DNA from: a virus
Lineage: Duplodnaviria > Caudoviricetes
Strand: one strand, 5' to 3'
IMG/VR virus record: IMGVR_UViG_3300010398_000010
Coordinates: 25,349-89,348 of that record
Length of the DNA stretch: 64,000 bases
Position 1 is the first letter of the stretch, and each line of letters begins with the position of its first letter. Positions 39,891-64,000 of this stretch are shown piece after piece. The notes under the pieces are model-generated. The model saw only the letters and a list, made by a program, of their open reading frames with translations, searched no databases and was not told where the DNA came from. Position numbers and translations under genes: made by a program.

Positions 39891-40928
39891 TCACGCCGCA
39901 TCACCGTCATCGGCGCCAGACGACCGGCACGCGAACGGCCCGCACCCGTCCGGGCTGCCCTCTTCCGCGAGCAGCGCCTCGGGCCCGAGGCCAGCCTCGG
40001 TGTCCGCGATCAGGTCGAGCAGATCCCCCTGCCGTTCGCGCCACTCGCGGCGGGTGTACCGGTCGATGTTCGCCTCGCCCAGCGGGACACGCTCGCGGTG
40101 CAGGAACGCCTCACCATCGAGGGGCAGCCCGTGGGATCCGCCCTTGCGGATCGCCGCGTCGAACTCGACCGCAGCCCGCCACTCATCCGGGTGATTGTCA
40201 CGCATGTTCCGCCACTGCCGGTTCCCGTGGTAGGGGCAGAACACGCACGCCGACTTAGCCACCGAGGTCCACCCCTGGCTGTGCAGGAAACGCAGGCACG
40301 CCTTGCGGTCGAGGTCGAGCTCGAGCAGCGGGTGCCGCACCCGCACATAACCGGGTGCGGCGTCGTTGACGCGACCGATCTCATCGGTGGAAAAACCGAC
40401 CCATAGCTCAGCGTGCCGCCCTTTCGGCACCCGCAGGTGACGCGGCGGCCGGGCACCAAGCAATTCCCGGACCTTGCGGTAAATGGGCTCGATCTTGTAT
40501 TCCGACGTGCACTGCCGCCGGCCCATCCCCTGACCGTTGTCCCACCCGGAGCCTTTGCACCGCGGGCAGCGCCGCTCACCGGCCTCATCGGTGACCCGGC
40601 CAGTCGTCCCGCACTTCTCACACGGCCCCGGCGCGTTCTGCACGAAATAGGGCACCGACGCGTACCGGTGATCAGGGTCGACGGCGTCGCGGGCCAGATT
40701 CCCCTTACTCACCTTGATGACCGGCAGGCCATAACCCGCGCAATAGTCGGTCAGCTGGGCAAGGTGGTCATAGACGCGCCGCGGCTCGCCCCCGGTGTCA
40801 GCGAAGATCGCCAGATCGAGGCGGGGCAGCTGCCCGTGACACGCCATCAGCGCGAGCGTCGTGGACTGCACCCCGGCGCCGAGGGACAGCACCCGGATCC
40901 ACGGCCGGCCAGTCTCAAGCGCGAGCAT
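39891..40928 (-). CDS. PAPS-reductase-like (adenine nucleotide alpha hydrolase / PP-loop) protein
   Basis: LSLGAGVQST, IFADTG, RQCTSEYKI, GFSTDE, KSACVFCPY motifs; start may be 40982. Confidence 0.8.
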   Translation of the reverse strand: MLALETGRPWIRVLSLGAGVQSTTLALMACHGQLPRLDLAIFADTGGEPRRVYDHLAQLTDYCAGYGLPVIKVSKGNLARDAVDPDHRYASVPYFVQNAPGPCEKCGTTGRVTDEAGERRCPRCKGSGWDNGQGMGRRQCTSEYKIEPIYRKVRELLGARPPRHLRVPKGRHAELWVGFSTDEIGRVNDAAPGYVRVRHPLLELDLDRKACLRFLHSQGWTSVAKSACVFCPYHGNRQWRNMRDNHPDEWRAAVEFDAAIRKGGSHGLPLDGEAFLHRERVPLGEANIDRYTRREWRERQGDLLDLIADTEAGLGPEALLAEEGSPDGCGPFACRSSGADDGDAA

Positions 40929-41157
40929 CGGCCCCCGCCTCCGCTCTGTTCCGCGCTCGCCACCGGTAGATGGTCCGCTCATCGACCCGCCAGCCCGCGA
41001 ACGCGTACCGCGCCGCGACCCGGGCGTGCGTTCCGGGATGCGCCCGGTCCCACCTCGCCAGCGCCGCCCGCCGCTCGGCTGCCTGCTCGACCCACCGCTC
41101 ACCCGCGTACAGAACCGCCGCCCACTGCATCTGCGTGCCCACCCACGCGGCCATCAC
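40915..41157 (-). CDS. hypothetical protein
   Basis: GTGA coupling with the MazG-like gene. Confidence 0.4.
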   Translation of the reverse strand: MMAAWVGTQMQWAAVLYAGERWVEQAAERRAALARWDRAHPGTHARVAARYAFAGWRVDERTIYRWRARNRAEAGADARA

Positions 41158-42006: not shown

Positions 42007-42498
42007 TCATTGGTCATCACCCGCCGGCTTGGCCTTGGTCTTTTTCGGCGGCGGGTTCTTACACGTCACCCAGTGCGCCACGCCGCGTTTCTCACCACGC
42101 CGCAGATCCGGCTCGGCCTTGGTCAGCATCCGGAACATCAGCTGCCCGCCCTCGCGGTGGACCGCGACCCGGCCCCGCTGGTCACCGGCCGACCAGTAAT
42201 CAACCGGCATCTTGGTGTCGCGGCCGGGCTCGGCTGAGACCGCCCACTCGATATCGGCACCGCACCCCTCGCGGCTGCATTGCGTCATTCCTGCCATGTC
42301 CAGTTCCCGCCCTTCCTCGGCGTCTGGTGGTGGGGCTAGTGACTCGGTGTCCGGTGGCCCCGCCCCGGTGACCTCCCGGTTCCACGCGCGCAGCTTGACC
42401 AGGGCCGGATCGTCCGGGCCGATCCCGGCCGCGCGCAGCTTCGCGTCGACCAGCTGGGCAAGCGGCACCTCAACCCGCGCGGCGGCGGTGGCCATCAC
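42007..42498 (-). CDS. hypothetical protein with Zn-binding-like C-terminal domain
   Basis: CSREGCGADIEW..MPVD..HWVTC; GTGA coupling. Confidence 0.55.
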   Translation of the reverse strand: MMATAAARVEVPLAQLVDAKLRAAGIGPDDPALVKLRAWNREVTGAGPPDTESLAPPPDAEEGRELDMAGMTQCSREGCGADIEWAVSAEPGRDTKMPVDYWSAGDQRGRVAVHREGGQLMFRMLTKAEPDLRRGEKRGVAHWVTCKNPPPKKTKAKPAGDDQ

Positions 42499-43334
42499 CG
42501 GACCCACCGCTCATCGGGGTCGAACAGGTCGCCCTGCACCCACCGGTCATTGACCATCCGCACCGTCCGTTCGTACGCCCAGGCGCAACGGCGCGGGCAG
42601 TTCTGGCACGTCTTGTGCGAGCAGCCAAGCTCGACCTTGGCGCCCTTGGGACGGCGGGCGTCGTCGGACCACGACGAACTGTCCGCCGAGACCAGCCGGT
42701 GCCCGAACTGCGCCAGCCCCCCGGTCTTGACCCCGAACCCGTGCAGCCGCAACGGTGCCAGCGACCTGACGATCTGGTCGGCCTCGGCGGTGTCCTGCCG
42801 GCGGCACATCGAGCCCAGCAGCACAAGCGGCTCATCCTCAAGGTGCACGCCGTGCCGCTCGTACAGATCCCAGCAGCGGTGGTAGTCGTCGCGCGTCCAC
42901 CCCTGCAACGTCAGCCGGATCGGCAGCGACGCGTCGGCCATCCGCAAGTCGAGCAGGTTCTCAACCGTCAGCCGCAGATGCTCGGGCACGTCCAGCCCGG
43001 TGCCGTGGAACCACTGCTGGCGGCCAGCCGGACCCCACCAGCCGCCGGCGATGATCGCCGGTTCGCACATCATGTCCTGCGGTGCCGCGAAGTCGAGCCG
43101 GCCGACCTCATCGGCGGCGCGGCGCATGAGCGCCACATACTCGGCCGGGGACAGCAGGTGCTTGCCCTCACGCTGCACGACCGTGAACGCCCCGGAGTCG
43201 AGCATCCAATCGCGGATCGCCGGGCGCCACGTCTTGACCAGGCCGAGGCGCGCGGCCGATACGCACACGGGGAACTCGCCGCGTTCGGCCAGCCACAGCC
43301 ACGCGGCAGAGTTGATCCCCGGATAGAACCTCAC
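42495..43334 (-). CDS. dpdA: TGT-fold DpdA-like 7-deazaguanine DNA insertion enzyme
   Basis: LDSGAFT, APQDMMCEP, LQG, LGSMCRRQ, LHGFGVK, SADSSSWS and terminal C-x4-C-x2-C motifs; coupled to the VUT gene. Confidence 0.75.
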   Translation of the reverse strand: MRFYPGINSAAWLWLAERGEFPVCVSAARLGLVKTWRPAIRDWMLDSGAFTVVQREGKHLLSPAEYVALMRRAADEVGRLDFAAPQDMMCEPAIIAGGWWGPAGRQQWFHGTGLDVPEHLRLTVENLLDLRMADASLPIRLTLQGWTRDDYHRCWDLYERHGVHLEDEPLVLLGSMCRRQDTAEADQIVRSLAPLRLHGFGVKTGGLAQFGHRLVSADSSSWSDDARRPKGAKVELGCSHKTCQNCPRRCAWAYERTVRMVNDRWVQGDLFDPDERWVR

Positions 43335-43909
43335 GGCGTGGTCGCCGCCAGCAGGTTCGACCGGCGCAGGAACCACGTCACCGGCAAGCCGACCAGAGCG
43401 ATCACTTCCAGCTTGCCGGTGATCTGCCCCGCCAGCGCGACGGAGTAGGGGATCCCGGCCAGCGCGAGGAACAGCAGCGAGTCGACCACCGCCGCGGCCA
43501 CGCTCGACACGGCGACACCGCGCACGAACCACCGCCGCGCCATCGGCGTATAGATCGCCATGTCCAAGCCCTCTGAGACCAGGAACGTCACCCCGGACGC
43601 GACCGCCAGCACCGGGCTGATGGCGTAGGTGAGCCCAGCTGCGAACACGATGGCCGCGACGCCCCACCACCGGCCAAGGCCACGCTGCACCAGATCGCGC
43701 AGCGGGAACGTCAGCCCCGCCATGTAAACCCCGGCCGGGGCGACCAGCAGCCACCACGGGGCCGTGCCCGGGGCAGGCGCGGGCCGGCCGGGGACGGGGA
43801 ACACCTCGATGAACCCGACGTGCACGATCAGCCAGTTGGCCAGATAGATCGCGGCGACGTAGGCCACCAGGGCGAGCCCGCCGACGACCCGGTCACGGTT
43901 CTCAGGCAT
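43331..43909 (-). CDS. VUT/QPTR (YhhQ-like) queuosine-precursor transporter
   Basis: Multiple TM helices; ANW..PAG..GLTFPLRDLVQ..ASG..FLVSE.LD..Y..DSLLF..GQITGK. Confidence 0.85.
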   Translation of the reverse strand: MPENRDRVVGGLALVAYVAAIYLANWLIVHVGFIEVFPVPGRPAPAPGTAPWWLLVAPAGVYMAGLTFPLRDLVQRGLGRWWGVAAIVFAAGLTYAISPVLAVASGVTFLVSEGLDMAIYTPMARRWFVRGVAVSSVAAAVVDSLLFLALAGIPYSVALAGQITGKLEVIALVGLPVTWFLRRSNLLAATTP

Positions 43910-43971
43910 GGCAAAATCTCACTCTCTGTAGTGGTTGAGGGTTCGCCCAAACAGGGCTGTTTGATCTTGAT

Positions 43972-44142
43972 CCGGGGGGGGTCAAGCCGCCGGGGGGGGT
44001 CGGGGGGGTCGTGACCCCCCCCGTTACCAAAAACACCCCTATCTTGATACTGACAAAATAGACTTTAGACTTATTTATATATAGGGAGTCACACCAGTTT
44101 CGTACAAACGCGACCCCCCCCGGACCCCCCGACCCCCCCCGG
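43972..44142. repeat. putative replication origin: inverted G8TC/GAC8 iterons around an AT-rich core
   Basis: CCGGGGGGGGTC at 43972 and 43990; GACCCCCCCCGG at 44112 and 44131; further partial copies; AT-rich 44028-44108. Confidence 0.65.
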
Positions 44143-44143
44143 C

Positions 44144-46249
44144 TCACGACTCGGCCCGCCGGTAGATCACACCGCTGCCGCCGCGCCCGTTCGCGTCACG
44201 TTCCGTAGGCACCGCAATGATCTCCCCACGCCGCACCAACTCGGCCAGGGCGTCATCGAGCACATCACGATGGCGGTTCATCGCCCCGCGCAGTTGCTTG
44301 CGTCTGACGCCATCCCGCGCAGCGCTGACCATTGAGAGGATCCGGGCACAAGCCTGATCAATAGACCGCCGCGCCGTGTCGTCCGCCACGATGGCCTGCC
44401 GGGCGGCGTCCGAATGCGCCCGCGACTCGTTCCGCTCCTGCGCCTCACGGCTCATCGCGTCCGCAGCTGCCTGCCGCGTCCGGTCCGACATCGCCATCAC
44501 GACCCCGGCCAGATCCCAGTCATCCTCACCCACGCCATCGAGGTGCATCACGTCCGGCCGCGACAGCCACGCCAGCGCCGCCGCCACCTTGAGCCGGCAC
44601 AGCGCCGCATGAGCCGCATAGGCGACCTCACCGCCGCGCAGCCGCGCCAGCCGGTCAGCCCGGATCACCGCCCGCGCCTTATCGCACACGCCGAGGGTCA
44701 GTTCCCCGTCGTGGTCACCGATCTCAGACAGACCCGGCATCCCCCACGACACCCCCCGCGGCGGCGGCGGCGGCTCATCCGGCGCGTTCGGGTCGTTCAC
44801 CGGCAGCCAGATGAACCGCTGCGGCGTCCCGCCGTCCACGTCATCGAGCAGAGCCCCAGCGTGCGTCGGCTGCACCCCGGCGATCAGCGACAGCCGGTAA
44901 GAGTGCCCCGGCACCAGCAGCCGCTTGTCCTTGGTGGCGTACTGGAAAGCAAGCTGCTCACCCATCCACGCCTTGCGAAGCTCGGGCAGCAGCGTCGACC
45001 CGCGCCGCGAGTTGAGCGCGGCCATCGTGTCGATCTCGGGCACCGTCATGAGCACGCACCGGTTGCGTTTCTGAACGCACGCGCCCTTCCGGTCGACCTC
45101 GGCGTACAGATGCGCGATCCCCTCACCCGACCCGACCCCGGAGGTGATCACGTCAACACCCCGGCCGAGGAACTGCTCAGCCGCCCGCTCGGCCACGCCC
45201 TTACCGGCACCGGACGGGCCGACCAGGGCGACGAACAGATTGAGCGACGCCCGCCCGCCGGTCAGCGCCGGCAGCATGACAGCTGGGGACATCGACGCGG
45301 TCATCCGCGCCAGCGCCGCACCCAGCACGGCCCACGGCCCGGCTTGGCTGGCCTGGGCGAAATCGTGCAACCGGGCCAGCACGTCACGCGCCTGCCAGAA
45401 CTCTTCCGGCGTGATCACCGGCTCGGATGGCTCGAGCTCGGCCGGTGGCTCACCAGCCTCAGCCACATCGAGCAGACCCGGCTCAGCCTCGACTGGGACG
45501 AACTCATCGAGCTTGAGCCCGGCGGCCAGATGATCGCTGGTGTCCTTGCCCGCAGCCGGGCGGACGATCCGCACCGACGCGGCGGCGACCTCAAGCTCAC
45601 CCCACACCCGCCGCGCATGGTCGAGCCCGGCGTGCCCGCCGCCACGGCCAGCCGGGTCGATGTCCGCGACGATCACCACGTCGGCACCCTCAAGGCTCGC
45701 GGTGTACCCGTCGTCCCACTTGCCCGCGCCCATCGGGTTGCACGTCGCGACCTGCCCGGCCCGCTCAAGCGCGTGCACGTCTTTCTCGCCCTCGACCAGC
45801 CAGATCGTGCTGCCGTTCGCGACGCCCATGACCACCTGCGGCAGGTGGTACAGCACCCGCCGCACGTCACCGAGGCCGGGCACCTGCCGCCCCCGCACGT
45901 AGCGGCCTTGGCGGAACGCCTTGGGGAACATCCGCTCGGTGTAGTGCAGCGGCGAGCCGAATTCGTCGGTGTAGACGTAGGTCGCGACCACCACCGGCCG
46001 GTCACCGTTGGTCGACGGCGCGCAGATGTCGGCCCAGCTGAGCGCGAGCGCGGCCATGACATCTTCGACATGGCAGCCGGCGTGGCAGTTCAGGATCACC
46101 GGCTGCGTCTTGCCGGTGGTGACCGACAGCGACGGGTTGTGATCGTCGTGCGCCGGGCACCGGGCGACGTAGCTGGTACCGGACTGCTTGCGCACCTTGT
46201 CCAGCTTGGCCAGCACCAGATCGAGCACGTCGGTTTCAGCCATCGGCAT
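44144..46249 (-). CDS. DNA primase-helicase (Zn-finger, TOPRIM, C-terminal P-loop/DUF3987-like)
   Basis: ARCPAHDDHNPSLSV; LVEGEKDV..CNPMGAGKW..VADID; GPSGAGKG Walker A. Confidence 0.88.
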   Translation of the reverse strand: MPMAETDVLDLVLAKLDKVRKQSGTSYVARCPAHDDHNPSLSVTTGKTQPVILNCHAGCHVEDVMAALALSWADICAPSTNGDRPVVVATYVYTDEFGSPLHYTERMFPKAFRQGRYVRGRQVPGLGDVRRVLYHLPQVVMGVANGSTIWLVEGEKDVHALERAGQVATCNPMGAGKWDDGYTASLEGADVVIVADIDPAGRGGGHAGLDHARRVWGELEVAAASVRIVRPAAGKDTSDHLAAGLKLDEFVPVEAEPGLLDVAEAGEPPAELEPSEPVITPEEFWQARDVLARLHDFAQASQAGPWAVLGAALARMTASMSPAVMLPALTGGRASLNLFVALVGPSGAGKGVAERAAEQFLGRGVDVITSGVGSGEGIAHLYAEVDRKGACVQKRNRCVLMTVPEIDTMAALNSRRGSTLLPELRKAWMGEQLAFQYATKDKRLLVPGHSYRLSLIAGVQPTHAGALLDDVDGGTPQRFIWLPVNDPNAPDEPPPPPRGVSWGMPGLSEIGDHDGELTLGVCDKARAVIRADRLARLRGGEVAYAAHAALCRLKVAAALAWLSRPDVMHLDGVGEDDWDLAGVVMAMSDRTRQAAADAMSREAQERNESRAHSDAARQAIVADDTARRSIDQACARILSMVSAARDGVRRKQLRGAMNRHRDVLDDALAELVRRGEIIAVPTERDANGRGGSGVIYRRAES

Positions 46250-48287
46250 CGACCTCGATGGTCCGGTTGATCACCCAGCACGCGGCGGGCAGCGCGACGG
46301 CGTTGCCGATCATCCGGTACCGCGCCGCATCCGACAGCGGGCCGGCAGCGGTGCGGGCGGTCCACCCGTCCGGGAACCCTTGCAGCCGCTCACATTCCAG
46401 CGGGGTGAGCCGGCGCACCGCCATGCCCGGGGCGGCGACCTTGGGCTCATGATGACCCGAATGAGTGTTCGACGCCCCGGCGAGCGTCGGGCTGATGCCG
46501 CCCTCACCGATCACCTGGTCTTGGTTCGACCCGCCCTGCCAGTTCCCGTCAACCACGCCCTCGCCGGCGACCATGTTGGCACCATGCCGGCCGGTGACCG
46601 GTGGCGCACCCGGCAGCGACATGCCCAGCTGACTGTTGCCCGCCGTGTTCGCGAACGGGATCAGCGGCGTCCCCCGGCCGGTGCCATCCTCCGACGCGTC
46701 CGCGCCCTCAGACGTGAGCGCGTGGGTGACCAGGTTGACATCGTCCTCTTTCCGCCGGCCCGGAGGGTTGACCCCATCCGATGCTGACCGGCCAGAGGTG
46801 AGCGTCGCCGCGACCATCGCCGCCGACGACCCCCCATCGGCGGCGCGGAGGGTGAACGCCGGATCCCCCGGCTGCCCGGCCTCGGCGGTGTTGCCGCCCT
46901 CGCGTCCCCGCAATGCGACCGGGAACGCCTCGGCGTCCGGGTCGACGGCGATGAAGTTGTCCAGTTCGCCATGCGCCCGGTCGCCCTTGGCGGTCAGCGT
47001 GTGCCCGACGATCAGATGCGAACCCGGCTGCCCGTCGTCACCCAGCCGCGCGCCCGGGGTCAGCACCCCGGCGACCTGATCAGCGGCGACCGGGATCAGG
47101 TGGCCACCGGCCGCGCCCTCAGCGTCGACGCGGTGCCCACGCCGCCCGCCGCCCTGCAACGTGGTCGCGACACCGGCCTGCCCGGTCGTGTCGAGGGTGT
47201 ACGCCGGGTCACCCGACTCGCCCAGCCCGACGCCGTTGGATCCGGTCTGGTGCTCACGCAGCGGCAGCGGCTCGATGATCGCGTGCCCCTGCTTCGCCTC
47301 CTGCACCGACAGCCGCGACCCGGCCGGCCCATGCGGGCCATCCTGCGCCGGGGTAGTCAGCGCGCCAACGGTCTCGACTACGCGGGAGGTGACGGCGGAT
47401 GCGGACTGTCCGACCCCGCCGAGGCCACCGCTTCCAGCGCTCGCCGCAAGGGCACCGGCAACTCGCGACCCCGTCGTCTGGCCCGGCGCAAGATCCCGCT
47501 CGCCCCCCTCGGGCTCAAGCAGTATTTCGCAAGGTGCGGCCCGGTCTCCAAGACGGCAGACAATGAACACACGGTTGCGTCGCTGGGGTACGCCGAAGTA
47601 TTGAGCGTCCAGCACTCGGTAGGCCCACCCATACCCGCGCTGCCCCAACGCCCCGACGACGGCACCCATAGCTCCCCCGTGGGTTGCCATGCACCCGCCC
47701 CGGCAGGATCCGCCTTTGGGGAGGTGGGCGACGCGGGCGGCAAAGACCCGGTGCTTGATTCCGTCGCGGTGGTGGGTGACCCATTTTCCGCATCGAACAG
47801 ACTGCCCTGTTCGTAGACAGGTCTCGTCACCGGGGCATTGGCAGACGGTGTCGAGCAGACCATCAACGTTCTCAAAGCAGAGCCAGAGTGGGCGCAATTC
47901 GTCGGCCAGCCGCATGATGTGCCAGAACAGTCCCGAACGTGCCCCAGATAGGCCCGCACGGCGGCCCGCCACGGAGAAATCCTGGCAAGGCCACCCGGCC
48001 GTGACAATTCCTCGGCTGGGATCAAAGCCGGTGGCTCGCAGCTGGTCACCTGTAACCGTCCTAACATCATCGAATTGGGGAACCTCAGGGAAGTGGTACG
48101 CGAGCAGCGCCCGGCAAGTGGGGTCGATCTCAACCGACGCGCAGACCTTGGCACCGCCCCGGCGCAGCGCCTCACCGAACCCGCCCATCCCCTCAAACAG
48201 GCACACAGCCGTGAGAGGTTTGGCCGGACCGTTACCGGCCCTTGAGACAAGCTCGCTTGCGTTGCGGCGGGCTGATTGCGCTACCAT
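46236..48287 (-). CDS. DNA cytosine-C5 methyltransferase with long repetitive TRD
   Basis: LFEGMGG, GWPCQDFS, ENVDG, QRRNRVF, RRLTPLECERLQGFP, GNAV motifs. Confidence 0.93.
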   Translation of the reverse strand: MVAQSARRNASELVSRAGNGPAKPLTAVCLFEGMGGFGEALRRGGAKVCASVEIDPTCRALLAYHFPEVPQFDDVRTVTGDQLRATGFDPSRGIVTAGWPCQDFSVAGRRAGLSGARSGLFWHIMRLADELRPLWLCFENVDGLLDTVCQCPGDETCLRTGQSVRCGKWVTHHRDGIKHRVFAARVAHLPKGGSCRGGCMATHGGAMGAVVGALGQRGYGWAYRVLDAQYFGVPQRRNRVFIVCRLGDRAAPCEILLEPEGGERDLAPGQTTGSRVAGALAASAGSGGLGGVGQSASAVTSRVVETVGALTTPAQDGPHGPAGSRLSVQEAKQGHAIIEPLPLREHQTGSNGVGLGESGDPAYTLDTTGQAGVATTLQGGGRRGHRVDAEGAAGGHLIPVAADQVAGVLTPGARLGDDGQPGSHLIVGHTLTAKGDRAHGELDNFIAVDPDAEAFPVALRGREGGNTAEAGQPGDPAFTLRAADGGSSAAMVAATLTSGRSASDGVNPPGRRKEDDVNLVTHALTSEGADASEDGTGRGTPLIPFANTAGNSQLGMSLPGAPPVTGRHGANMVAGEGVVDGNWQGGSNQDQVIGEGGISPTLAGASNTHSGHHEPKVAAPGMAVRRLTPLECERLQGFPDGWTARTAAGPLSDAARYRMIGNAVALPAACWVINRTIEVDADG

Positions 48288-63803: not shown

Positions 63804-64000
63804 CCTGCACACATGACACATGACATGCACCTCGCCTAGTCACCAACCGGCCACTGGTCACCAACAGGGAACTCGCCCACCCATCATCTTGGACCCCCCC
63901 ATCGTCCTGACCACCCCACTGATCGACCACCCCGGGCGCTGGCTCAGCGACCATCCCCCGCGCGCCGGACAGATAGTCGTTCATGATCCTTTCCGGCGAC

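What the first reader, a model, noticed from the sequence alone, without database searches (positions are those of the whole stretch)
42495..43909. Salvage-only 7-deazaguanine DNA modification pair: QPTR/VUT transporter coupled to a DpdA-like transglycosylase
Seen: the VUT-family transporter stop overlaps the GTG of a TGT-fold protein that retains DSG, QD, QG, HGFG and SADS motifs and a C-terminal Cys cluster. No folE, queD, queE or queC genes appear in the window. Established: DpdA exchanges guanine in DNA for preQ0/preQ1-type bases, protecting against restriction, and YhhQ/QPTR imports these precursors. Inference: the phage imports precursor from the environment instead of synthesising it, so protection would depend on external deazaguanine supply.
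Basis: partly seen in the sequence, partly recalled or inferred. Interest (0 to 1): 0.72.

Follow-up and report, generated by a model that had tools for sequence, protein, structure and literature searches.

The report
Phage import-and-insert deazaguanine gene pair
A nearly complete 89-kb soil actinomycete phage carries two overlapping genes, a small membrane transporter and a DNA base-swapping enzyme, and no genes to make the base, so it most likely scavenges a queuosine-type base to disguise its DNA; this is a known idea, never tested.

Summary
On the minus strand, a 192-aa membrane protein (43331-43909) ends in a GTGA overlap with a 279-aa TGT-fold protein (42495-43334).

- **Enzyme:** it matches Pfam DpdA (E 1.6e-47) and not tRNA TGT. 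The three aspartates and a Cys/His zinc cluster are conserved. The model is confident and TGT-like.
- **Transporter:** it is a short, divergent VUT/COG1738 member. It scores below the Pfam and QPTR cut-offs, so the label "QPTR" is unproven.
- **Precursor genes:** no QueC, QueD, FolE or radical-SAM gene occurs in the whole record (89 kb, 98% complete).
- **Recurrence:** the same DpdA type adjoins the transporter in 10 of 80 related viral loci, in 9 Streptomyces genomes and in cultured phage phiLM21. In 65 more viral loci the transporter sits beside one of two other DpdA-like families that Pfam does not cover.
- **Family record:** this is the "orphan DpdA" family of mycobacteriophages. No member has shown activity, and Orion DNA is unmodified.

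Best reading (0.6): import of a 7-deazaguanine base and its insertion into phage DNA. Whether the base comes from the host or from outside is open, and the host is unknown.

Hutinet 2019 raised the idea, and this scan holds 96 notes on salvage-type cassettes in at least 84 genomes. I class it as a new variant of a known kind.

The parts
43331..43909 (-). Short VUT/COG1738-family membrane protein (192 aa, about 6 hydrophobic segments), the putative importer of a 7-deazaguanine base
   Evidence: phrog_4899 E 9e-24. Pfam Vut_1 gives 22 bits, below its cut-off. Relatives at 45-63% identity carry PF02592 and are named queuosine precursor transporter or YhhQ by their sources. The family profile against E. 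coli YhhQ gives hhalign E 6e-5.
42495..43334 (-). DpdA-family TGT-fold transglycosylase (279 aa, GTG start overlapping the transporter's stop)
   Evidence: Pfam PF23859 E 1.6e-47 and phrog_1279 E 1.3e-51. AF2 pLDDT 90.9, with Foldseek top hits to tRNA-guanine transglycosylases and DpdA 7ui4. D46, D87 and D218 are invariant, and C238/H240/C243/C246 are conserved.
42007..42495 (-). 162-aa ORF of unknown function whose ATG overlaps the DpdA stop (TGATG); coupled in this phage but not a conserved partner
   Evidence: Sequence. The only family hit is phrog_5984 (unknown function, E 7e-7). No homologue follows DpdA in the other VUT-DpdA loci.
43910..44143 (.). 234-bp intergenic region upstream of the pair, with six GGGGGGGTC repeats in inverted orientation around an AT-rich core; candidate promoter, regulatory region or origin
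   Evidence: Six of the seven occurrences in the 64-kb window lie at 43975-44139. Sequence. There is no Rfam match and in particular no preQ1 riboswitch.

Best explanation
This is a two-gene import-and-insert module for 7-deazaguanine DNA modification. Both genes sit in the replication/recombination gene block, after a C5-cytosine methyltransferase and the primase-helicase, and are probably translated as a coupled unit. The small VUT-family permease brings a free 7-deazaguanine base into the infected cell. The base is most simply preQ0 or preQ1, but its identity is unknown. The DpdA enzyme then exchanges guanines in the phage's double-stranded DNA for that base, using the double-displacement chemistry of TGT enzymes. 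By analogy with Asp256 and Asp95 of Salmonella DpdA, D218 would be the nucleophile and D46 the general acid/base. D87 would read the base, and a Cys/His zinc site holds the C-terminal part. The modified DNA would resist restriction enzymes. Shown here: the family and fold of both proteins, conservation of the catalytic residues, the gene overlap, the absence of precursor biosynthesis genes in the genome, and recurrence of the pair. Inferred: the substrate, the direction of transport, DNA rather than RNA as target, and the benefit.
For: Identity of the two proteins:
- The enzyme matches Pfam DpdA at 162 bits and does not match PF01702 TGT.
- Its model has pLDDT 90.9, and the best structural matches are TGT enzymes and DpdA 7ui4.
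- All three active-site Asp positions and F50 are invariant in 35/35 homologues, and the zinc ligands are conserved. Their roles are taken from PMC10164549.
- The transporter's relatives carry PF02592 and are named queuosine precursor transporter or YhhQ. The family profile aligns to E. coli YhhQ at E 6e-5.

No precursor genes:
- No QueC, QueD, FolE or radical-SAM gene occurs in the 98%-complete genome.

Recurrence of the pair:
- A PF23859-type DpdA adjoins the transporter gene in 10 of 80 related viral loci. In 9 the order is VUT then DpdA, in several with overlapping stop and start codons.
- The pair also occurs in 9 Streptomyces genomes and in cultured Sinorhizobium phage phiLM21.
- Of the 8 of these records searched whole, 7 lack QueC and all 8 lack QueD and FolE; 5 of them are 100% complete.
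- In 65 more of the 80 loci the transporter sits beside one of two other DpdA-like TIM-barrel families, phrog_887 and phrog_15826. In all, 75 of 80 phage copies adjoin a DpdA-type gene.

Likely hosts:
- None of the 9 Streptomyces genomes has tRNA TGT, and 4 of 9 lack a real QueC, so import is the only visible source there.
- The window holds no tRNA gene.
Against: - No member of this DpdA family has been shown to act on DNA. Mycobacterium phage Orion carries a DpdA that PF23859 scores at 468 bits, yet its DNA has no deazaguanine (PMC6884629). That fits a lack of substrate in M. smegmatis, but it equally fits a different function.
- The window's DpdA shows no significant BLASTP similarity to the validated Rosebush DpdA. 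Profile searches did not reach the solved Salmonella DpdA by sequence.
- The transporter is below the curated cut-offs and is only remotely related to YhhQ.
- Deleting the phage yhhQ in CAjan had no effect on modification (PMC7544227).
- No preQ1 riboswitch precedes the gene.
- The host is unknown, and so is the availability of free deazaguanines in its habitat.
Confidence: 0.6

Rival explanations
1. The chemistry is the same, but the host supplies the base. DpdA draws on a preQ0 pool made by the host's own QueCDE enzymes. The phage transporter is an accessory that tops up or recaptures the base, as the dispensable yhhQ of phage CAjan appears to do.
For: 5 of 9 Streptomyces genomes carrying the same VUT-DpdA pair have a strong QueC of about 250 bits. 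[quoted passage not shown] Hutinet 2019 names host supply as one option for DpdA-only phages.
Against: 4 of those 9 genomes have no real QueC, and none has tRNA TGT. A transporter that merely tops up would not be expected to stay beside a DpdA-type gene in 75 of 80 phage loci, in several with overlapping stop and start codons. Orion lacks both a transporter and a host pathway, and its DNA is unmodified.
Confidence: 0.15
2. The pair salvages and inserts a different base from preQ0 or preQ1. Candidates are 7-carboxy-7-deazaguanine, 7-deazaguanine, queuine, or a deazapurine released by antibiotic-producing actinomycetes. The DNA would then carry another, possibly undescribed, modification.
For: The transporter belongs to a distinct short subfamily that fails the QPTR equivalog model. 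COG1738 members are known to differ in substrate (own knowledge of the queuine-transporting Chlamydia YhhQ, not checked here). The closest viral relative, L002, has the order DpdA-VUT-QueC with no QueD or FolE, which would fit import of the QueC substrate CDG. Phage DpdA subfamilies insert varied bases (PMC10516641).
Against: Nothing in the sequence points to a particular alternative substrate. No decorating enzyme is conserved next to the pair.
Confidence: 0.12
3. The enzyme acts on RNA (host tRNA) rather than DNA, using the imported base to change translation during infection.
For: The fold and catalytic residues are shared with tRNA-guanine transglycosylases. Database names for the relatives are 'queuine tRNA-ribosyltransferase'.
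Against: It matches the DpdA model and not the TGT model. It lacks the extra tRNA-binding parts of the longer TGTs (279 aa against about 370-580 in the matched structures). Relatives sit in phages and prophages of hosts with no tRNA TGT, hence no queuosine in tRNA by the known route (mycobacteria per PMC6884629). The gene lies among DNA replication and modification genes. The window has no tRNA gene.
Confidence: 0.05
4. The pair is carried but gives no modification under natural conditions, either as an inactive remnant or with a function unrelated to base exchange.
For: Orion's DNA is unmodified. No member of the family has been validated.
Against: The catalytic and zinc residues are invariant across 35 diverse homologues, and both reading frames are intact. 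Gene order and coupling are conserved across distant phages. All of this argues for selection on activity.
Confidence: 0.08

Closest known systems
Phage DpdA systems with full precursor pathways (Escherichia phages 9g and CAjan, Mycobacterium phage Rosebush; Hutinet et al. 2019, PMC6884629)
   Same: A TGT-fold DpdA is proposed to replace guanine in phage DNA with a 7-deazaguanine base to block restriction. CAjan's cluster also holds a yhhQ-type transporter (PMC7544227).
   Different: Those phages encode FolE, QueD, QueE and QueC, and this genome has none. Their DpdAs belong to other sequence families: Rosebush gp2 is not significantly similar and is not hit by PF23859. In CAjan the transporter is dispensable; here it would be the only phage-encoded route to the base.
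'Singleton' DpdA of mycobacteriophages (Orion and about 400 SEA-PHAGES genomes; group 3 of Hutinet et al. 2019)
   Same: They belong to the same protein family: PF23859 scores Orion at 468 bits, and the window protein is 38-42% identical to these DpdAs. Those phages also lack precursor genes.
   Different: Neither of my two transporter searches of the phage collection hit a phage of the singleton-DpdA groups, and the three loci I inspected have no transporter next to DpdA. Orion DNA is unmodified. In a tree they form one clade (100/100) nested among transporter-linked DpdAs. They look like a derived, transporter-less branch, though the backbone of the tree is unresolved.
E. coli YhhQ / QPTR, the preQ0/preQ1 importer (COG1738, PF02592, TIGR00697)
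   Same: It is a polytopic inner-membrane protein of the same superfamily. The conserved motifs align: RD/TD, AS..F..SE..D, and DSL.F/DTL.F.
   Different: It is about 30 residues shorter, has roughly 23% identity over 117 aligned columns, and fails the QPTR equivalog cut-off (20.4 against 50.95 bits). Its substrate is untested.
Bacterial Dpd system (DpdA-DpdB-DpdC of Salmonella Montevideo; PDB 7ui4; PMC10164549)
   Same: It shares the TIM-barrel TGT fold, three conserved aspartates and a structural zinc site.
   Different: The phage locus has no DpdB ATPase partner, no DpdC and no restriction genes. There is no detectable sequence match to 7ui4, even with a family profile.

Membership tests
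DpdA (Pfam PF23859, TGT-fold DNA transglycosylases) | Matches the family HMM above the curated cut-off and does not match tRNA TGT (PF01702) | tested here: met
   162.4 bits against a cut-off of 27, over residues 3-269. PF23859 was the only Pfam family at E up to 1.
DpdA (Pfam PF23859, TGT-fold DNA transglycosylases) | TGT-type TIM-barrel fold | tested here: met
   AF2 model with pLDDT 90.9 and pTM 0.88. The Foldseek top 50 are all tRNA-guanine transglycosylases plus DpdA 7ui4 at rank 2.
DpdA (Pfam PF23859, TGT-fold DNA transglycosylases) | Three active-site aspartates (general acid/base, base recognition, nucleophile) and a stacking Phe | tested here: met
   D46 with F50 (DSGAF), D87 (PQD) and D218 (SADS) are invariant in 35/35 homologues. 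Equivalence to Asp95, Asp130 and Asp256 of Salmonella DpdA is by motif, not by a residue-level superposition.
DpdA (Pfam PF23859, TGT-fold DNA transglycosylases) | Structural zinc site of Cys/His ligands | tested here: met
   C238 (30/35 Cys, otherwise His), H240 (34/35), C243 (34/35) and C246 (35/35). This is sequence evidence only.
DpdA (Pfam PF23859, TGT-fold DNA transglycosylases) | Exchanges guanine in DNA for a 7-deazaguanine base | not testable with these tools
   No member of this sequence family has been validated. Orion, a member, has unmodified DNA (PMC6884629).
VUT / COG1738 transporters (Pfam PF02592) | Matches the family HMM above the curated cut-off | tested here: inconclusive
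   The protein itself scores 22 bits against a cut-off of 27.2, over residues 95-153 only. Relatives at 45-63% identity carry PF02592, and the family profile aligns to E. coli YhhQ at E 6e-5, probability 65%.
VUT / COG1738 transporters (Pfam PF02592) | Polytopic membrane protein with about six transmembrane segments | tested here: met
   The hydropathy scan finds segments near residues 11-29, 84-102, 101-119, 132-150 and 157-181, plus a weaker one near 52-70.
QPTR / YhhQ queuosine precursor transporter (TIGR00697 equivalog) | Reaches the equivalog cut-off | tested here: not met
   20.4 bits against a cut-off of 50.95. It is a separate short subfamily, so it should not be filed as QPTR.
QPTR / YhhQ queuosine precursor transporter (TIGR00697 equivalog) | Transports preQ0/preQ1 | not testable with these tools
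   The only support is genomic linkage to DpdA-type genes in 75 of 80 viral loci.
Complete phage preQ0-pathway clusters (CAjan/Rosebush type) | FolE, QueD, QueE and QueC encoded by the phage | tested here: not met
   No match to PF01227, PF01242, PF04055 or PF06508 at E up to 1 in the 89,348-bp record, which is 98% complete.

The most novel reading that the evidence does not exclude
The short VUT permease and a DpdA-type enzyme form an old, near-obligate two-part salvage system that spans three DpdA-like families, two of which have no Pfam model. The hundreds of 'orphan' DpdA genes of mycobacteriophages would then be a derived branch that lost the permease, and that loss would explain why no modification was found in Orion. 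In soil actinomycete phages the imported base could be a deazapurine other than preQ0/preQ1, giving a DNA modification not yet described.
Probability: 0.2. Interest if true: 0.75.

Novelty: new variant of a known kind. Interest (0 to 1): 0.5.

Why it matters
Phage 7-deazaguanine DNA modification is an established anti-restriction strategy. The largest group of DpdA-carrying phages, those with DpdA and nothing else, has stayed unexplained since 2019. The one such actinophage examined (Orion) had unmodified DNA; Salmonella phage 7-11 carried only a trace of dADG.

This locus and its relatives show that the same DpdA family is repeatedly welded to a small permease in genomes that lack every precursor gene. 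That gives a concrete, testable reason: the enzyme needs an imported base.

If the reading is true, protection of these phages from restriction would depend on which deazapurines are available in the host or in the soil around it. That would link phage defence evasion to community metabolism. Cultured phages with the same kind of pair exist: phiLM21, StevieRay and its relatives, Aoka and ReqiPine5. The question can therefore go straight to the bench.

Tried and rejected
- The genomic context of the closest metagenomic homologues (P0005, 86% identical transporter; P0124/P0125 DpdA) could not be read.
- **Single-protein scan:** a viral-contig scan with the transporter alone found nothing. It worked only with a family alignment.
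- **Solved structures:** sequence and profile searches of solved structures with the DpdA gave no hit. Only the fold search linked it to TGT and DpdA.
- **Riboswitch:** a preQ1 riboswitch upstream of the transporter would have named the substrate. None was found; there were only sub-threshold chance matches.
- **Promoter and terminator scan:** it gave nothing useful on the coding strand.
- **Conserved third gene:** The 162-aa coupled ORF has no homologue after DpdA in the other loci, and the genes downstream of DpdA differ from locus to locus.
- **PAPS-reductase-like gene:** the gene two genes downstream recurs near some pairs, at most about 12 of 80 loci, so I did not count it as part of the module.
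- **Other DpdA-like families:** hhalign between the DpdA family and the two other transporter-linked families was weak (50% and under 1% probability). Pfam gave nothing for them. Their DpdA-like nature rests on motifs, PHROG and SEA-PHAGES names, a structure model and language-model neighbours.
- **Host:** cultured phages did not identify it. The best primase matches are about 40% identical, to Gordonia phages.
- **Streptomyces loci without DpdA:** neighbour clustering in the 48 such loci gave no clear partner.
Full report
**What is there.** The window is bases 25349-89348 of an 89,348-bp IMG/VR virus record that CheckV rates 98% complete. Its G+C content is 69.7%. The finding covers two minus-strand genes.

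The first is 43331-43909. It encodes a 192-aa hydrophobic protein with about six membrane segments. The second is 42495-43334. It encodes a 279-aa protein that starts at a GTG. On the coding strand the junction reads GTGA, so the stop of the first gene overlaps the start of the second. The longer 420-aa ORF listed at 42495-43757 is only the same frame read back into the transporter gene. Homologues and the Pfam model begin at the GTG.

A third ORF (42007-42495, 162 aa) starts at an ATG that overlaps the DpdA stop (TGATG).

The genes upstream are a 683-aa C5-cytosine DNA methyltransferase and a 701-aa primase-helicase. Downstream lie a PAPS-reductase-like protein, a RusA resolvase and small unknown proteins. 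The pair therefore sits in the DNA replication and modification block.

**The enzyme.** Pfam places the 279-aa protein in DpdA (PF23859, E 1.6e-47) and reports no other family, in particular no tRNA TGT. PHROGs gives phrog_1279, 'queuine tRNA-ribosyltransferase'.

An AlphaFold model built on 35 homologues is confident (pLDDT 90.9). Its best matches among solved structures are tRNA-guanine transglycosylases and the Salmonella DNA preQ0 insertase DpdA, 7ui4.

- D46-S-G with F50
- Q86-D87
- Q144-G145
- H198-G-F-G
- S-A-D218-S
- the ligand set C238/H240/C243/C246

In Salmonella DpdA the corresponding aspartates are the general acid/base (Asp95), the base-recognition residue (Asp130) and the nucleophile (Asp256) (PMC10164549). 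I assigned the equivalence by motif, not by a residue-level superposition.

**Which DpdA family.** This point changes how the finding should be read. PF23859 scores the DpdA of Mycobacterium phage Orion at 468 bits and does not hit the experimentally validated DpdA of Rosebush. The window protein is not significantly similar to Rosebush gp2. Neither the protein nor a family profile reaches the solved Salmonella DpdA by sequence.

Its best matches among cultured phages are about 400 mycobacteriophage 'queuine tRNA-ribosyltransferase' genes at 38-42% identity. This is the 'singleton DpdA' group of Hutinet et al. 2019. Those authors found no deazaguanine at all in Orion DNA. They noted that neither Orion nor M. 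smegmatis can make preQ0 (PMC6884629). The enzyme family is therefore DpdA by homology and fold, but its activity has never been shown.

**The transporter.** On its own the 192-aa protein reaches only 22 bits on Pfam Vut_1 (cut-off 27.2) and 20.4 bits on the QPTR equivalog TIGR00697 (cut-off 50.95). It does match phrog_4899 at E 9e-24.

A search of the large protein collection found 362 relatives. From about 63% identity downwards, most carry PF02592 and are named 'queuosine precursor transporter' or 'YhhQ (DUF165)' by their sources. They form a short subfamily of about 170-195 residues with 20 invariant positions.

A profile of this subfamily aligns to E. coli YhhQ over 117 columns (hhalign E 6e-5, probability 65%), with the conserved acidic and serine motifs in register. 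I conclude that it is a VUT-superfamily permease. It is not an orthologue of QPTR, so its substrate is inferred only from its neighbours.

**No precursor genes.** Searches of the whole record with the Pfam models for QueC, PTPS/QueD, GTP cyclohydrolase I and radical SAM (QueE) found nothing at E up to 1. The control genomes rang as expected.

**Is the pair a real unit?** A scan of viral contigs with the subfamily alignment found 177 contigs encoding a relative of the transporter, and 80 loci were kept.
- **Same DpdA type.** A PF23859-type DpdA is present in 10 of the 80, and in every case it is the adjacent gene. In nine the order is transporter then DpdA, in several with overlapping stop and start codons. 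In one (L002) the order is DpdA, transporter, QueC.
- **Precursor genes in those records.** Of the eight of these records searched whole, seven lack QueC and all eight lack QueD and FolE. Five of them are rated 100% complete.
- **Bacterial genomes.** 58 loci, almost all Streptomyces, Nonomuraea and relatives, encode the short transporter. Nine of them again have a DpdA directly downstream.
- **Cultured phage.** Sinorhizobium phage phiLM21 has the two genes side by side, both annotated 'hypothetical'.

**A wider pattern.** The other 70 viral loci were not random.
- **phrog_887 family (35 loci).** The gene next to the transporter, mostly just upstream, is a ~226-aa protein of phrog_887, 'queuine tRNA-ribosyltransferase'. 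Its motifs are DNGAF, PDVI, HMLRG and SADS.
- **phrog_15826 family (30 loci).** The gene just downstream is a ~220-aa protein of phrog_15826 (unknown function). Its motifs are ADNG.F, APDV, AQ(N/D)G, HMGRVN and DS.DGT.

Neither family has a Pfam match, and profile comparison with the DpdA family is weak. Other evidence still points to DpdA-like enzymes:
- A model of the phrog_15826 family is a confident TIM barrel.
- In the viral structure library, phage 'queuine tRNA-ribosyltransferase' proteins are the only recurring named family among its best matches.
- Among solved structures its top matches include the TGT-like Cap10, TGT, archaeosine TGT and DpdA. Generic TIM barrels score about as well.
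- For both families the nearest named language-model cluster is DUF6610, the family that Cui et al. 2023 renamed DpdA4.
- SEA-PHAGES annotators already call these short proteins 'DpdA-like tRNA-guanine transglycosylase' in Mycobacterium phage StevieRay and Arthrobacter phage Aoka. There the neighbouring transporter is labelled only 'hypothetical' or 'membrane protein'.

Taken together, 75 of 80 phage copies of this permease lie beside a DpdA-type gene. [quoted passage not shown] At the level of gene adjacency the link is in fact very tight.

**Hosts.** The host of this phage is unknown. Cultured-phage matches are too distant to help.

In the nine Streptomyces genomes that carry the same pair, none has tRNA TGT. 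Five have a genuine QueC, and four have only weak PP-loop matches. Some likely hosts therefore cannot make preQ0 at all, and others can. This is why I cannot decide between an external and a host source.

The window has no tRNA gene. That, together with the absence of queuosine-tRNA machinery in the related hosts, argues against a tRNA target.

**Family tree.** The tree holds 33 DpdA sequences. The four mycobacteriophage orphan DpdAs form one clade (100/100) whose sister is a transporter-linked DpdA. Transporter-linked members are spread over the rest of the tree. The backbone is unresolved and the root is only a midpoint. This fits the idea that the orphans are a branch that lost the transporter, but it does not prove it.

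**Mechanism proposed.** The permease imports a free 7-deazaguanine base. DpdA swaps it for guanine in phage DNA through a covalent Asp218 intermediate, and the modified DNA resists restriction. The shown and inferred steps are separated under Best explanation.

The main rivals are:
- host supply of the base, with the transporter as an accessory
- a substrate other than preQ0 or preQ1
- a tRNA target
- no activity

**Comparison with what is known.** The concept is in the literature. Hutinet 2019 proposed that DpdA-only phages might rely on host preQ0 or on uptake. CAjan carries a yhhQ in its cluster, which proved dispensable (PMC7544227). About 9% of bacterial dpd islands include YhhQ (PMC11888242).

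This scan has also noted salvage-type DpdA-plus-transporter cassettes before, in 96 notes from at least 84 genomes.

Three things are new here. The pair is translationally coupled in a high-G+C actinophage whose nearly complete genome has no precursor gene. The enzyme is placed in the unvalidated 'orphan DpdA' family. The permease is almost always next to a DpdA-type gene. My literature searches found no paper describing that adjacency.

**Verdict.** This is a real, well-supported gene pair and a new variant of a known kind of system. Its main value is that it turns the orphan-DpdA puzzle into a simple feeding experiment with phages that are already in culture.

Noticed in passing
window 43910-44143: The 234-bp gap between the primase-helicase gene and the transporter holds six of the window's seven GGGGGGGTC copies: three on each strand, flanking a strikingly AT-rich core in a 70% G+C genome. 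It could be a replication origin or a regulatory region. The seventh copy is at 63892-63900, near the genome end.
   Followed up: partly
L003-L081 (e.g. L020:4181-4861, L008:5763-6452): Two protein families with no Pfam model lie directly beside the short VUT permease: phrog_887 (~226 aa) in 35 viral loci and phrog_15826 (~220 aa) in 30. Both have DpdA-like motifs, and the one modelled (phrog_15826) is a TIM barrel. They look like further DpdA subfamilies, near DUF6610/DpdA4.
   Followed up: partly
L002:4171-6154: The closest viral relative of the transporter has the order DpdA, transporter, QueC, yet its record (64% complete) has no QueD or FolE. This would fit import of 7-carboxy-7-deazaguanine and its conversion to preQ0 by QueC.
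   Followed up: partly
L043:3806-4939: One open frame joins the N-terminal half of a phrog_887-type DpdA-like protein to a full QueC domain, directly upstream of the transporter. It is either a real fusion or a sequencing frameshift.
   Followed up: no
window 39891-41102: A 403-aa PAPS-reductase-like protein (phrog_424; no Pfam hit at E 0.01) lies three genes downstream of DpdA. Similar genes lie close to the transporter/DpdA-like pair in Rhodococcus phage ReqiPine5 (gp04-gp03-gp02) and in loci L010, L045 and L060. It belongs to the same PP-loop superfamily as QueC, but the link is not consistent.
   Followed up: partly
L082-L139 (Streptomyces, Nonomuraea and other genomes): 48 of 58 bacterial loci with the short VUT permease have none of the three DpdA-like families within 4 kb, so the partner there, if any, is unknown. 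Five of nine Streptomyces genomes with the pair have QueC but no tRNA TGT, so their preQ0 serves something other than queuosine.
   Followed up: partly
L151, L152 (Mycobacterium phages Niklas, LilPharaoh): In these temperate mycobacteriophages the orphan DpdA sits just upstream of the tyrosine integrase, a position typical of genes expressed from the prophage.
   Followed up: no
window 46236-48287: A 683-aa C5-cytosine DNA methyltransferase lies just upstream of the primase-helicase gene. Its methylase domain is split into three matched stretches. The phage would thus carry at least two kinds of DNA modification enzyme.
   Followed up: no
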